From the NCBI GenBank assembly GCA_035400945.1, contig DAONAJ010000003.1, positions 88,676-152,675 of the forward strand: DNA of 64,000 nt, in the 5' to 3' direction. A program made the position numbers and the translations under genes. Positions 22,281 through 24,880 of the stretch are shown in pieces (position 1 is the stretch's first letter; each line of letters begins with the position of its first letter). The notes beneath the pieces are model-generated. The model saw only the letters and a program-made list of their open reading frames with translations, had not been told where the DNA came from and searched no databases. This DNA is from Spirochaetota bacterium (GTDB lineage: Bacteria; Spirochaetota; UBA4802; UBA5550).

Positions 22281-22391
22281 ACCTCACCCCGCCTCCGGCG
22301 CGCCCTCTCCAACAGGCGAGGGCTCCGAGTTAAGGATTCTTCTTCAACTTCCCCCTCTCCCTGCGGGAGAGGGGGACCGAGGGGGTGAGGT
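22281..22391. repeat. GC-rich palindromic intergenic element (REP/MITE-like), copy 1
   Basis: Terminal inverted repeats acctcacccc ... ggggtgaggt; internal perfect 11-bp stem ccccctctccc-tgc-gggagaggggg (22351-22375); lies between MFS start and aminotransferase stop. Confidence 0.6.
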
Positions 22392-22395
22392 ATCC

Positions 22396-23886
22396 CTAGT
22401 CCTTCTTCACCTCAATATGTTTGAAAATGCGGTCGAAGCGCTCGAGGGCATCGTCGATTACTTCATCGGTGTCAGCCATGCTCGTATAGAGACGGCTTCC
22501 GGCCAGGGTGATGATTCCCTCGGCGGTCATGGCGGCTCCCATTTCCTCCATGACCTTTTTCCGGGTCCCCACTTCCTTGAAGATATTGGGGTTCTTGATG
22601 TCCATGAGCATCGCCGCGCCGGTCTCCATGTGGCAGATGGAGGCGTGGTTGAAGGCCACGAAGGGGAGCTTGTTCCGCTCGAATATGTCAGACAGGCCCT
22701 TGGCAAGGCGGTCTCCCGCGGCGCCGGCCTTGATGTGGGCGCCGGTCTCCTCGATGGCCTTGATGGCATAATATCCGGCAGCGCAGCTCATCGGGTTTGC
22801 CGACAGGGTGCCCCCCACCATGGCGCGCTTCCCGCCGGGACCGCCGATGCCGGCGGCATAGCAGAGCATGACGTCTTTCCGTCCGCCGACGCCGCCGGCG
22901 CCGGGATAGCCGCCGGCCACGCATTTGCCGAACACGGTCAGGTCGGGCTTGATGTTGAAATAGCCCTGGGCGCCGCCCAGGCCCACGCGGAACCCGGTGA
23001 CGACCTCATCGAAAATCAGGAGCGCTCCGAAACGGTCGCAGAGCTCCCGCACCTTCTGGTTATAGTCCCGGAGCACCGGCCTGGTGCCGCTCTCGGGTCC
23101 CAGGGGCTCAAGGTATACCGCCGCCGTGCCGCCGTCCTTCTCGTTATCCTCCATGCGCTTCTGCAGCGCGTCGATGTCGTTGGGGAACACTTCCTGGGTA
23201 AACTGGTAGGCTCCGGCGGGGATGCCGTGGGCGTCGAGGGGACCGACCCCGGGGACCCTCATCCCGAACACGAACTGGTCGCTCCAGCCGTGGTAGGCGC
23301 CGCCGACCTTAATGACGTATTTCTTGCCGTTGAAGCACCGGGCGGCGCGCACCGCGGCCATGCATGCCTCGGTGCCGCTCATCAGCATGCGGAACATCTC
23401 TATCGAGGGCATGTGGGCATGGATCAGCTCGGCCAGCTTCAGTTCGAACTCATGGAAAAGTCCGGTCACCGGGCCGCTTTCCCTGATAACCTCGATGACC
23501 TTTTCCTGTACCGGTTTGTAGTTGCTGCCGAGGAGCGTGGGCCCGCCCGCCTGGAGGAAGTCGATGTACCGGTTGCCGTCAACGTCCCAGAGATAGGCGC
23601 CGTCCGCCCTGGTGATGGCCAGGGGGAAGGGATAATTGAAGGCCAGGTTGTGCTGCACGCCGCCGGGGATCAATTCCTTGGCGCGATCGGTCATTGCCTT
23701 TGACTTCGCGCATTTCTTGTCGAAATAAGCCAGGTACTCCTGCATCTTTTCACGAGTGACCTGGTGGATCGGCAGCTCGTTGGCCAGGTGGTACAGCCGC
23801 TTCTGCAGCTCTTCCGTATCAGGCCAGTGGGATATTCCGTATTGTTGCGTGTTTGCCTTGTTCATGATGATTCTCCTTTTTAACAT
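22396..23886 (-). CDS. Class III (GSA-aminomutase-like) PLP-dependent aminotransferase with about 60 aa N-terminal extension
   Basis: 496 aa; HemL-like core (ELIPGGV..., LLIFDEVVTGFRVGLGGAQGYFNIKPDLTVFGKCVAGG with the PLP lysine). Confidence 0.8.
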   Translation of the reverse strand: MLKRRIIMNKANTQQYGISHWPDTEELQKRLYHLANELPIHQVTREKMQEYLAYFDKKCAKSKAMTDRAKELIPGGVQHNLAFNYPFPLAITRADGAYLWDVDGNRYIDFLQAGGPTLLGSNYKPVQEKVIEVIRESGPVTGLFHEFELKLAELIHAHMPSIEMFRMLMSGTEACMAAVRAARCFNGKKYVIKVGGAYHGWSDQFVFGMRVPGVGPLDAHGIPAGAYQFTQEVFPNDIDALQKRMEDNEKDGGTAAVYLEPLGPESGTRPVLRDYNQKVRELCDRFGALLIFDEVVTGFRVGLGGAQGYFNIKPDLTVFGKCVAGGYPGAGGVGGRKDVMLCYAAGIGGPGGKRAMVGGTLSANPMSCAAGYYAIKAIEETGAHIKAGAAGDRLAKGLSDIFERNKLPFVAFNHASICHMETGAAMLMDIKNPNIFKEVGTRKKVMEEMGAAMTAEGIITLAGSRLYTSMADTDEVIDDALERFDRIFKHIEVKKD

Positions 23887-23895
23887 AACATTCTA

Positions 23896-24036
23896 CCCCC
23901 TCCCCCTCGATGGGGGAGGCCGGGTGGGGGTGAATGATCTCATCACCCTTCCCTATACCGCGTTCCCAGGATGGGGTTGATGCCAACGCAGGCACAGGAT
24001 GTGCCGAATGCGTTGGCCTCCCATCAAGGGAGGGGG
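23896..24036. repeat. GC-rich palindromic intergenic element, copy 2
   Basis: ccccctccccctcgatgggggaggcc ... ggcctcccatcaagggaggggg terminal inverted repeats with nested hairpins (gggtga..tcaccc; ccaacgca..tgcgttgg); between aminotransferase start and aldolase stop. Confidence 0.6.
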
Positions 24037-24042
24037 ATATTA

Positions 24043-24735
24043 TCAAACCTTCGCCTTCAATTCCTCTTTGCGCTTTATCTCCGCGTCCTGCTTGCCCGCC
24101 ACGATTTTCCCCATCATCTCCTGTATATTCTGCGGCAGGATGGTGACCTCTTTCCCGGTGGAGAGGGCCAGGCAGTAGACCTTTGCCTCCTTTTCCAGCA
24201 GCTCAGCGCAGCGCTTCGCCTTCGCCAGGTCCGGGCCAAGGGCCAGGGCCCCGTGGTTCTGGAGAAGGTAGCAGTTGCTCCGGTTGCCCAGCTTCGATTT
24301 CACGTTTTCAATGAGCTGGGGGCTGCCGGAAAGCGCATAGGGCACGACCTCGACAAGGGCGCCGATGGTCATGGAGACCTCGTCGAAGAGGGCCGGGATC
24401 GGCTGGTTGAGGAGGGCGAAGACGCTGGCGTAGATCTGGTGCGTGTGGACCACGGCGCCAACATCGGCCCGGCTTTTATACACCGCAACGTGCATGCCGG
24501 TTTCCATCGACGGCTTCAGGCCGTTGTCCACGACGGGCTTGAGGTCAAAGTCAACGACGCATATTTCATCAACGGTCATGCCGCGGTATTCACGCTGCGA
24601 CGGCGTCACCGCGACCACGTCCTCGCCCTCGACGCGGAGGGAAACGTTGCCGCCGGTCCCCTGCACGTACCCTTCGCGGACCAGTTCCATGATGCAGTCG
24701 AACACCTGTTTTTTATAGATATCGTATTTTCCCAT
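24043..24735 (-). CDS. Class II aldolase/adducin family protein (fuculose-1-phosphate aldolase-like)
   Basis: 230 aa; Zn-binding His residues (VVHTHQ...), fold typical of FucA/AraD/RhaD. Confidence 0.8.
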   Translation of the reverse strand: MGKYDIYKKQVFDCIMELVREGYVQGTGGNVSLRVEGEDVVAVTPSQREYRGMTVDEICVVDFDLKPVVDNGLKPSMETGMHVAVYKSRADVGAVVHTHQIYASVFALLNQPIPALFDEVSMTIGALVEVVPYALSGSPQLIENVKSKLGNRSNCYLLQNHGALALGPDLAKAKRCAELLEKEAKVYCLALSTGKEVTILPQNIQEMMGKIVAGKQDAEIKRKEELKAKV

Positions 24736-24780
24736 GATGTTGTATCCTCTGACTTGTTTTTTAAATTTCGATAGCGGAGC

Positions 24781-24880
24781 GCCCCCTAAATCCCCCGGAG
24801 GGGGACTTCTGTGATCAGAGCAAGTCCGGAAAAGCCCCCCTCCGGGGGGATGGGGGGGTGCTCTGAGACAGACCCAGCGC
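24781..24880. repeat. GC-rich palindromic intergenic element, copy 3
   Basis: tcccccggaggggga and cccccctccgggggg palindromes plus imperfect inverted repeat tctgtgatcagagca/tgctctgagacaga; between aldolase start and FGGY kinase stop. Confidence 0.55.

What the first reader, a model, noticed from the sequence alone, without database searches (positions are those of the whole stretch)
22281..24880. Family of GC-rich palindromic elements occupying every intergenic junction of the catabolic operon
Three 90-140 bp elements (22281-22391, 23896-24036, 24781-24880) fill the gaps between MFS/aminotransferase, aminotransferase/aldolase and aldolase/kinase. Each is built from runs of C5-7/G5-7 forming perfect 11-15 bp hairpins (for example ccccctctccc-tgc-gggagaggggg) and bounded by terminal inverted repeats (for example acctcacccc … ggggtgaggt). 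They look like REP/MITE-like repeats or intercistronic RNA-processing/stability stem-loops. Their restriction to this operon within the window is striking.
Basis: seen in the sequence. Interest (0 to 1): 0.55.

Follow-up and report, generated by a model that had tools for sequence, protein, structure and literature searches.

The report
BoxC-type triplex-motif palindromes between operon genes
The three GC-rich palindromes between the genes of this spirochaete sugar/amine-catabolic operon are real, but they are local copies of an already described and very widespread bacterial repeat (BoxC, also called the intrastrand triplex motif), arranged as inverted pairs; the mildly new point is that they pile up in this one operon and are reshuffled among close relatives.

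Summary
Three intercistronic gaps on the minus-strand operon (FGGY kinase, class II aldolase, class III aminotransferase, MFS) each carry a 90-140 bp C-run/G-run palindrome that folds far better than shuffles (z -3.4 to -5.3). Nothing similar occurs elsewhere in the 64 kb, in 16 kb of extra flank, or in about 175 kb flanking the same operon in 14 related Spirochaetota MAGs.

The interpretation needs sharpening. Each element is an inverted pair of C-block/G-block/G-block units. These are the BoxC / PIT / "G/C-rich intrastrand triplex motif" of Holder et al. 2015. E1 matches the E. coli consensus at 31 of 34 and 29 of 34 positions, and E2 at 30 of 36. The "terminal inverted repeats" are the third blocks of the two units.

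All three subtypes occur in many unrelated viral or metagenome contigs, so the repeat class is generic. They are not MITEs (no target duplication), not RAYT-type REPs, not terminators, and match no Rfam family at threshold.

Among relatives the same subtypes sit at different junctions and in different orientations. One strain allele carries a 60-nt hairpin inserted into a unit. This indicates unstable, turnover-prone DNA.

Any RNA-level role (exonuclease barrier, or ribosome stalling 4-7 nt after stop codons) is inferred only. This is a new member of a known kind, of modest interest.

The parts
22281..22391 (.). E1, in the aminotransferase/MFS gap: an inverted pair of triplex-motif (TM) units with the third blocks outermost
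   Evidence: The orthologous copy sits at the same junction in L132 and L133.
22349..22391 (+). E1 right TM unit: (TT)CCCCCTCTCC(C)-TGC-GGGAGAGGGGGA-CCGA-GGGGGTGAGGT
   Evidence: TM scan gives 12-nt blocks. It matches 31 of 34 positions of E. coli TMECO type B.
22281..22322 (-). E1 left TM unit, read on the minus strand: CCCTCGCC-TGTT-GGAGAGGG-CGCGCCGGAGGC-GGGGTGAGGT. It has the same T>G stem mismatch as the E. coli 'mm' type and an unusually long 13-nt second loop.
   Evidence: 29 of 34 positions.
23896..24036 (.). E2, in the aldolase/aminotransferase gap: an inverted pair of TM units with the third blocks innermost. In this allele one unit is split by an insertion.
   Evidence: The short allele in L003 has both units intact.
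23898..23932 (+). E2 intact TM unit: CCCTCCCCC-TCGAT-GGGGGAGG-CCG-GGTGGGGG
   Evidence: It matches 30 of 36 positions of TMECO type B-mm. The same pattern occurs in 90 viral contigs.
23957..24016 (-). Strain-specific 60-nt insertion (a net gain of 58 nt; it replaces GG) inside the second E2 unit. It carries two hairpins with AUCCUG loops.
   Evidence: Absent from L003, L004, L007 and L010; present in L001, L002, L005, L006, L008, L009 and the window. Rfam Bacillaceae-1 scores 31.6 bits, below the gathering score of 35. No second copy was found in any fetched DNA.
24771..24883 (.). E3, in the kinase/aldolase gap: an inverted pair of short pure C/G TM units (core 24777-24863), third blocks outermost, plus a 6-bp outer stem
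   Evidence: (I1). This junction is only 7-14 bp in most relatives.
24834..24858 (+). E3 right TM unit: CCCCCC-TCC-GGGGGG-AT-GGGGGGG
24782..24806 (-). E3 left TM unit, read on the minus strand: TCCCCC-TCC-GGGGGA-TTTA-GGGGG
   Evidence: The identical 23-mer occurs in 2 viral contigs and in L136.
24891..26492 (-). FGGY-family carbohydrate kinase, first gene of the operon
   Evidence: Pfam FGGY_N and FGGY_C.
24043..24735 (-). Class II aldolase
   Evidence: Pfam Aldolase_II.
22396..23865 (-). Class III aminotransferase. The start at 23865 follows a GGAGA ribosome-binding site.
   Evidence: Pfam Aminotran_3. ENA- and NCBI-record gene calls, plus three JGI ones, use the same start.
21016..22254 (-). 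MFS transporter
   Evidence: Pfam MFS_1.

Best explanation
Each of the three elements is an inverted pair of BoxC / PIT / 'G/C-rich intrastrand triplex motif' units. One unit has three parts: a C-rich block, a short loop and the complementary G-rich block (the hairpin), then a second short loop and a further G-rich block that mirrors the second.

Shown:
- The architecture and the sequence match to the E. coli family.
- All three subtypes are pan-bacterial.
- The units are confined to the junctions of this operon within about 250 kb sampled from this spirochaete clade.
- The same subtypes occupy different junctions and orientations in close relatives.
- One unit has suffered a 60-nt hairpin insertion in part of the population.

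Inferred:
- They are repeat DNA that persists and spreads by a replication/recombination-type route (template switching, gene conversion between nearby copies, or capture at existing palindromes), not by a transposase. They were tolerated here because these junctions are not translationally coupled.
- Their main consequence is at the mRNA level. Because they are co-transcribed in the polycistronic message, they form -60 to -80 kcal/mol multi-hairpin structures that start 4-7 nt after the upstream stop codon and end 20-35 nt before the next ribosome-binding site.
- By analogy with E. coli REPs, such structures would block 3'-to-5' exonucleases, which favours the upstream cistrons. They may also impede terminating ribosomes.
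For: - **Architecture.** My triplex-motif scan finds five units with blocks of 7-12 nt, all inside the three gaps. Shuffles give about 1. The short allele, L003, has six units forming three inverted pairs.
- **Sequence match.** Against the E. coli TMECO sequences of Holder et al. 2015, Table 1, E1 matches 31 of 34 and 29 of 34 positions and E2 matches 30 of 36. Both pair geometries seen here, third blocks inside or outside, occur among the E. coli pairs listed in that table.
- **Generic class.** The CCCTCTCCC/GGGAGAGGG hairpin occurs in more than 120 viral contigs. The G5-flavoured unit occurs in more than 120 metagenome contigs, none from this organism. The E2-type unit occurs in 90 viral contigs and the exact E3 23-mer in 2.
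- **Local hot spot.** Across 14 related loci there are 26 hits in operon junctions against 4 chance-level hits in about 175 kb of flanks. There are none in the extra 16 kb of this contig. Among 19 homologous operons of other phyla there is a unit at a single site, scored on both strands.
- **Turnover.** Junction lengths and contents differ among relatives. E1-type sits inverted at aldolase/AT in L132, L134 and L150. E2-type sits inverted at AT/MFS in L131. E3-type sits at aldolase/AT in L136. Alignment scores are 72-131 against a shuffle maximum of 27.
- **Instability.** There is a 58-nt net indel inside E2 among strains that are otherwise nearly identical at these junctions. This fits the published link between these motifs and local genomic instability (PMC4666352).
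- **RNA context.** Folds are stable on the sense strand. No promoter- or terminator-like sites lie at the elements. The rule that a REP must lie fewer than 16 nt from a stop codon to down-regulate translation, and the exonuclease-barrier role of REPs, are as summarised in PMC12306157.
Against: - Genome-wide copy number in this organism is unknown, so 'dispersed multi-copy', a defining feature of the family, is not shown for this genome.
- E3 matches the E. coli consensus poorly (21 of 36) and is assigned by architecture only.
- E1-left has a 13-nt second loop, outside the 1-6 nt used by the published finder.
- Triplex formation in vivo was not supported even in E. coli.
- The spreading mechanism is unknown.
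- No RNA data exist for this operon. The free change of orientation and subtype among relatives argues against a sequence-specific RNA function.
- PIT elements had no promoter or terminator activity in E. coli.
Confidence: 0.78

Rival explanations
1. These are selected intercistronic RNA elements. The operon needs a strong stem-loop after each cistron to set differential mRNA stability or to damp translation termination of the upstream gene, and triplex-motif pairs are simply the hairpins recruited for that job. This overlaps with the best explanation rather than excluding it.
For: - Nearly every relative has some stable hairpin at the aldolase/AT and AT/MFS junctions, even where it is not a triplex-motif unit. 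Examples are the long plain hairpin at AT/MFS in L163 and the short one in L139/L140.
- The elements are confined to this operon across the clade.
- They begin 0-7 nt after stop codons and leave the next ribosome-binding site free.
- Sense-strand folds reach -67 to -83 kcal/mol.
- E. coli REPs provide precedent.
Against: - L135 has overlapping or 28-bp junctions, and L137 a plain 53-bp aldolase/AT spacer, with no motif unit at the operon junctions.
- The kinase/aldolase junction is 7-14 bp in most relatives.
- Subtype, orientation and size vary without any visible constraint.
- There are no transcript data.
- Tests of the same repeat class in E. coli found no promoter or terminator activity and no effect on RNA polymerase.
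Confidence: 0.3
2. These are transposase-mobilised miniature elements: either MITEs with terminal inverted repeats, or REP/REPIN elements moved by a RAYT (TnpA-REP).
For: - The elements have inverted ends.
- The same subtype is found at different junctions and in both orientations in relatives.
- One allele carries a nested insertion.
Against: - The only insertion with a known empty site shows no target-site duplication; it replaces 2 nt.
- The 'inverted ends' are the third blocks of the units.
- No conserved GTAG or CGTC head is present.
- No transposase or Y1-transposase domain appears among the genes annotated over about 84 kb.
- Holder et al. found no association of this motif with mobile elements in E. 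coli.
Confidence: 0.05
3. These are conventional cis-regulatory RNA: internal terminators or attenuators, a riboswitch, or protein-binding leaders for the downstream genes.
For: They lie in intercistronic positions upstream of each downstream gene, and the predicted structure is strong.
Against: - No U-tract follows the stems, and no terminator-like call is made on the transcribed strand at the elements.
- No Rfam family reaches its gathering score.
- Neither sequence nor position is conserved among orthologous operons.
Confidence: 0.04
4. The pattern is a compositional accident of GC-rich spacers.
For: The region is about 60% G+C.
Against: - No shuffle out of 200 folds as well as the real sequence.
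- All motif units with blocks of 7 nt or more, and all clusters of C5/G5 runs that form hairpins, lie in three gaps totalling about 470 bp out of 64 kb.
- The sequences match a published consensus from E. coli.
Confidence: 0.01

Closest known systems
BoxC / PIT elements / G/C-rich intrastrand triplex motif (TMECO) of E. coli and more than 260 other prokaryotes (Holder et al. 2015, NAR 43:10126, PMC4666352; earlier work by Bachellier and by Hoyne/Maher, as cited there)
   Same: - The three-block C-G-G architecture with short loops.
- Near-identical core sequence: CCCTCTCCC-N3-GGGAGAGGG-CCG-GGGTGAGG.
- The same T>G 'mm' variant.
- CCG-type and TTA/ATA-type second loops.
- Strictly intergenic location.
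- Occurrence as inverted pairs in both geometries.
- Association with small indels among close strains.
   Different: - The host is an uncultured Spirochaetota lineage.
- Six units are packed into three consecutive intercistronic gaps of one operon. E. coli has at most one pair per locus and shows no operon bias.
- The G/C runs are longer (5-7).
- One unit has a 13-nt second loop.
- E3 is a stripped-down, pure C/G version.
- Dispersal across this genome is not shown.
REP / BIME elements of enterobacteria (for example malE-malF; Newbury et al. 1987; Liang, Rudd and Deutscher 2015, as summarised in PMC12306157)
   Same: These too are intergenic palindromes, often intercistronic and often within 15 nt of a stop codon. 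They form stable hairpins in the mRNA that block 3' exonucleases and can stall terminating ribosomes. They also have a mosaic arrangement of inverted units.
   Different: The sequence family is different: there is no GTAG head and no known RAYT partner here, and the units have a third G-block. No functional data exist for these copies.
MIRU (mycobacterial interspersed repetitive units) — from my own knowledge, not tested here
   Same: Small repeats that sit specifically in the intercistronic gaps of operons and vary among strains.
   Different: MIRUs are tandem direct repeats carrying small overlapping ORFs, not G/C palindromes.
Triplex-motif pairs in alphaproteobacterial GTA/prophage structural clusters (viral contigs L078, L087, L342)
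   Same: Inverted pairs of the same motif (hairpin, then a GGGTGAGGG/CCCTCACCC central hairpin, then a hairpin) occupy 3-4 successive junctions of one co-directional gene cluster, directly after stop codons.
   Different: The host and the genes are different, and the copies within one cluster are clearly homologous to each other. In the window the three elements are three different subtypes.

Membership tests
BoxC / PIT / G/C-rich intrastrand triplex motif | Three consecutive blocks: a C-rich block, its reverse complement, then a G-rich block that mirrors the second (G.G-C, A.A-T or T.A-T triads) | tested here: met
   My scan finds five units with 7-12-nt blocks in the window and six in the short allele, with at most one mismatch per stem or triad set.
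BoxC / PIT / G/C-rich intrastrand triplex motif | Sequence similarity to the published consensus CCCTC(T/G)CCC-loop-GGGAGAGGG-(TTA/CCG)-GGGTGAGGG | tested here: met
   E1 right matches 31 of 34 positions, E1 left 29 of 34 and E2 30 of 36. The E3 halves match only 21 of 36, so E3 is assigned by architecture (against Table 1 seen).
BoxC / PIT / G/C-rich intrastrand triplex motif | Loops of 1-6 nt (the criterion of the published ITxF finder) | tested here: inconclusive
   Met by five of the six units. E1 left has a 13-nt second loop, which is conserved in L132 and L133.
BoxC / PIT / G/C-rich intrastrand triplex motif | Strictly intergenic location, often as inverted pairs on opposite strands | tested here: met
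   All units lie in intergenic gaps, as three inverted pairs. Both geometries occur among the E. coli pairs of Table 1.
BoxC / PIT / G/C-rich intrastrand triplex motif | Many dispersed copies per genome | tested here: inconclusive
   About 80 kb of this contig and about 175 kb of relatives' flanks hold no copy outside the operon.
BoxC / PIT / G/C-rich intrastrand triplex motif | Formation of an intrastrand triplex by the single strand | not testable with these tools
   This needs CD/NMR on oligonucleotides. The published work showed it in vitro but did not find it in vivo.
REP / REPIN (RAYT-mobilised) | Conserved GTAG or CGTC head at the 5' end of the palindrome | tested here: not met
   By reading the sequence, there is no such head on E1 or E3. 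The single GTAG 3' of E2 is not in head position.
REP / REPIN (RAYT-mobilised) | A RAYT (Y1 transposase) gene in the genome, typically flanked by the repeats | tested here: inconclusive
   None appears among the genes annotated over about 84 kb. The rest of the genome was not seen.
MITE | Terminal inverted repeats plus a target-site duplication | tested here: not met
   The ends are inverted, but the filled/empty allele pair shows no duplication: GG is replaced by 60 nt. No direct repeats flank E1 to E3.
Intrinsic terminator | A GC-rich hairpin followed by a U-tract on the transcribed strand | tested here: not met
   No terminator-like call is made on the minus strand at the three elements, and the downstream sequence is A/T-mixed rather than a U run.
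Any curated Rfam family | Score at or above the family's gathering threshold | tested here: not met
   The best matches are Bacillaceae-1 at 31.6 bits (threshold 35), which lies on the 60-nt insert and not on the triplex-motif units, and mir-5429 at 35.2 bits (threshold 80).

The most novel reading that the evidence does not exclude
The operon-restricted accumulation is not passive. Either triplex-motif pairs copy themselves preferentially into neighbouring junctions and into existing palindromes, which would be the first evidence for how BoxC-type repeats spread. Or this spirochaete clade has domesticated them as interchangeable intercistronic modules that set the relative output of the kinase, aldolase, aminotransferase and transporter.
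Probability: 0.15. Interest if true: 0.55.

Novelty: new member of a known kind. Interest (0 to 1): 0.3.

Why it matters
BoxC/triplex-motif repeats have been known since the 1990s and are conserved across very distant bacteria, yet neither their function nor their way of spreading is known. This locus offers a compact natural experiment:
- six units sit in three adjacent gaps of one operon;
- about a dozen related genomes show gains, losses, inversions and junction swaps;
- a filled/empty allele pair exists within one population.

It could be used to study how these repeats move and whether they affect polycistronic mRNA. For genome annotation, the practical point is that such 'striking' palindromes should be labelled as a known repeat class rather than as new regulatory RNAs.

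Tried and rejected
- **Rfam search of the operon region.** Nothing reached threshold. The mir-5429 match is only a hairpin resemblance. The near-threshold Bacillaceae-1 match lies on the strain-specific insert, not on the elements themselves.
- **CsrA-type GGA-loop hairpins.** There is no enrichment. Only the insert carries them, and on the antisense strand.
- **Promoter/terminator scan.** Nothing lies at the elements.
- **Copy number in this organism.** Extending the window by look-ups added only 16 kb.
- **A second copy of the 60-nt insert.** None was found in about 3.5 Mb of fetched DNA.
- **MITE, RAYT-REP, terminator, riboswitch and chance readings.** Each was considered and rejected for the reasons given under the rival explanations.
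- **The primary paper on REPs and translation (Liang et al. 2015).** It could not be opened, so it is cited through PMC12306157.
- **G-quadruplex or i-motif readings of the G/C runs.** These were considered but not pursued, because every run is paired within a hairpin.
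Full report
**What is there**

The region lies in a minus-strand gene row. It runs FGGY-family kinase (24891-26492), class II aldolase (24043-24735), class III aminotransferase (22396-23865), MFS transporter (21016-22254), then a 979-aa glutamate-dehydrogenase-like protein (18034-20973). Promoter-like sites occur only upstream of the kinase, at 26500-26790. No terminator-like site lies at the internal gaps, so a single transcript is plausible.

On the mRNA-sense strand they fold to -67.5, -82.7 and -71 kcal/mol. 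The z-scores are -3.4, -5.3 and -4.5 against dinucleotide shuffles, and none of 200 shuffles does as well.

Two whole-window scans find this kind of structure only in these three gaps: one for perfect hairpins of at least 8 bp and one for clusters of C5/G5 runs. The other strong hairpins in the window, at 30014, 38390, 42114 and 43054, look like ordinary terminators. The 42-bp MFS/dehydrogenase junction has no element.

**What it is**

The hairpin CCCTCTCCC-N3-5-GGGAGAGGG proved extremely common. In several of those contigs the hairpins come in pairs about 110 nt apart, flanking a GGGTGAGGG/CCCTCACCC hairpin.

A full-text search for these words led to Holder et al. 2015 (PMC4666352). That paper describes the BoxC or PIT element as a "G/C-rich intrastrand triplex motif" (TM). 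Its properties, as reported there:
- It consists of a C-block, a loop, the complementary G-block, a second loop, and a second G-block that mirrors the first.
- E. coli K-12 has 23 copies, all intergenic, and five sites carry inverted pairs.
- The motif occurs in more than 260 prokaryotic genomes.
- The single strand forms a triplex in vitro, but this was not seen in vivo.
- Earlier work found no promoter or terminator activity.
- Loci with the motif vary more than control loci among E. coli strains, mostly through small intergenic deletions or mutations.

The window elements fit this description unit by unit:
- E1 right end (+): CCCTCTCCC-TGC-GGGAGAGGG..CCGA..GGGGTGAGGT. It matches E. coli type B at 31 of 34 positions.
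- E1 left end (read on the minus strand): CCCTCGCC-TGTT-GGAGAGGG-13 nt-GGGGTGAGGT. It matches 29 of 34 positions and carries the same T-to-G stem mismatch as the E. coli "mm" type.
- E2: CCCTCCCCC-TCGAT-GGGGGAGG-CCG-GGTGGGGG. It matches 30 of 36 positions.
- The two E3 halves are short pure C/G versions (CCCCCC-TCC-GGGGGG-AT-GGGGGGG). They match only 21 of 36 positions but have the same three-block layout.

My own scan for such three-block units finds five with blocks of 7-12 nt, all in the three gaps. The only other hit is a trivial 5-mer. Block-shuffled sequence gives about one hit per window.

So each element is an inverted pair of units. In E2 they are innermost and form the central hairpin. 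Both geometries occur among the E. coli pairs in Table 1 of the paper.

All three subtypes are pan-bacterial. The E2-type pattern is in 90 viral contigs, the exact E3 23-mer is in two, and the G5-flavoured E1 pattern is in more than 120 metagenome contigs, none from this organism.

**Organism and comparison with relatives**

The same locus occurs in many anaerobic-digester metagenomes and in MAG GCA_964415215.1. The closest species-level genomes are uncultured Spirochaetota/Leptospirales MAGs with 85-97% aminotransferase identity. More distant homologous operons lie in Anaerolineae, Burkholderiales, Caldisericota and others.

Within the population there are two E2 alleles:
- The short allele (L003, L004, L007, L010) has both units intact.
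- The window allele has 60 nt inserted in place of GG inside the second G-block of one unit. There is no target-site duplication.

Among the 14 related spirochaete loci the junctions are highly variable:
- The kinase/aldolase gap is 7-14 bp in most, and 74 bp with a plain hairpin in L131 and L132. E3 is therefore a recent gain in this lineage.
- E1-type elements sit at the same aminotransferase/MFS junction in L132 and L133.
- An inverted E1-type sits at the aldolase/aminotransferase junction in L132, L134 and L150.
- The E2-type sits inverted at the aminotransferase/MFS junction of L131, the closest relative. There its second loop is TTA instead of CCG, the same A/B dichotomy as in E. coli.
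- The E3-type sits at the aldolase/aminotransferase junction of L136.
- Single units occur in L133, L139, L140 and L161. L135 has none, and no unit scored in L137 or L151; L151's aldolase/aminotransferase gap looks like a decayed E1-type by eye.

Local alignment scores for these assignments are 72-131, against a shuffle maximum of 27.

In the roughly 175 kb flanking the operon in these loci there are only four weak, chance-level hits, against 26 inside the operon junctions. The extra 16 kb of the window's own contig has none. Among 19 homologous operons in other phyla there is a unit at a single site, scored on both strands, just upstream of the aldolase in one Anaerolineae MAG.

Packing of triplex-motif pairs into successive junctions of one co-directional cluster also occurs elsewhere, in alphaproteobacterial GTA/prophage structural clusters (L078, L087, L342).

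**How it most likely works**

Shown:
- Identity with a known repeat class.
- Local concentration in this operon.
- Turnover among relatives.
- One nested insertion in part of the population.

Inferred:
- The units persist and rearrange through replication/recombination processes at palindromes. This is the explanation Holder et al. favour for the instability they measured.
- A transposase is unlikely. No transposase domain appears among the genes annotated over about 84 kb, and there is no target duplication.
- Because the elements are co-transcribed, their RNA would form very stable multi-hairpin structures. These begin 4 nt (E1), 3-6 nt (E2) and 7 nt (E3) after the upstream stop codon, and 0 nt after it in many relatives. 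The next ribosome-binding site is left free.
- For E. coli REPs, such structures block 3' exonucleases. [quoted passage not shown]

I rate an RNA-level effect of this kind as plausible (about 0.3 that it is selected for) but untested. Three things count for it: some hairpin, triplex-motif or not, is present at the two downstream junctions in most relatives; the elements are confined to this operon; and they sit close to stop codons. Three things count against it: orientation, subtype and size change freely; some relatives have none; and the E. coli members showed no promoter or terminator activity.

**What it is not**

- Not a MITE: there is no target-site duplication.
- Not a RAYT-type REP: no GTAG/CGTC head, and no RAYT seen.
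- Not an intrinsic terminator: no U-tract.
- Not a curated RNA family: nothing reaches the gathering score.
- Not chance: shown by the shuffles and by the cross-species sequence matches.

**Limits**

I could not read the rest of this genome, so its total copy number of units is unknown. That test is answered only locally: the class is generic across bacteria, but within the roughly 250 kb sampled from this clade it is confined to this operon. Two of the relatives (L151, L161) show frameshifted genes, possibly from sequencing errors, so their homopolymer runs may also be unreliable.

**Verdict**

The feature is real and is correctly described in outline. It is explained as inverted pairs of the known BoxC/triplex-motif repeat, so it is a new member of a known kind. 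The residual interest lies in the operon-level hot spot and in the well-resolved turnover series among relatives.

Noticed in passing
window 23957-24016 (minus strand); Rfam match 23963-24028: The strain-specific 60-nt insert inside E2 carries two hairpins with AUCCUG loops. It scores 31.6 bits against Rfam Bacillaceae-1 (gathering score 35; E = 0.0066 over 6.1 kb). Its reverse complement has CAGGAUG loops, resembling CsrA-binding hairpins as proposed for that family in PMC4333381. No second copy was found in any fetched DNA. A weaker look-alike (GACATCCTGTC) replaces one hairpin of the E1-type element in L133.
   Followed up: partly
window 18034-32262: The operon (FGGY kinase, class II aldolase, class III aminotransferase, MFS, 979-aa ELFV-type dehydrogenase) sits next to a 7TM-GAF-AraC regulator (28204-29913) and a neutral/alkaline ceramidase (30094-32262). 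This suggests catabolism of an amino-alcohol or sphingoid-base-like compound. The kinase-aldolase-aminotransferase core, in varying gene order, recurs in Anaerolineae, Burkholderiales and Caldisericota MAGs.
   Followed up: no
L078 1661-7031; L087 5511-8445; L342 3635-8466 (viral contigs): Gene-transfer-agent-like or prophage structural clusters (capsid, tail tube, Rcc01698-like; Pfam-checked for L078 only) carry homologous triplex-motif pairs at three or four successive junctions, directly after stop codons. The junction positions are shared between the two related clusters L078 and L087.
   Followed up: partly
L150, L134, L151, L138: end of the aldolase gene: In several relatives the aldolase ends ...GGG TGA, in L150 and L134 directly followed by CCTCACCC. 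The stop codon therefore lies inside a GGGGTGA string that looks like a triplex-motif third block. The element may have supplied a new C-terminus and stop codon.
   Followed up: no
L161 and L151: aminotransferase and kinase genes: The aminotransferase (and the kinase in L161) aligns only in part, and the remaining residues reappear in another frame within the downstream 'intergenic' stretch. These are frameshifts, either real pseudogenes or sequencing/assembly errors.
   Followed up: no
L131 11483-11515 compared with window 23898-23930: The second loop of the E2-type unit is CCG in the window and TTA in the closest relative. These are the same two loop types (B and A) that Holder et al. describe in E. 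coli, which suggests that this dichotomy is a family-wide property.
   Followed up: no
window 14587-17892 and 26866-29913: The neighbourhood is dense in signalling proteins that share an N-terminal 7TM (HisKA_7TM) module fused to SpoIIE phosphatase or GAF-AraC domains, plus an MCP and a further SpoIIE phosphatase.
   Followed up: no
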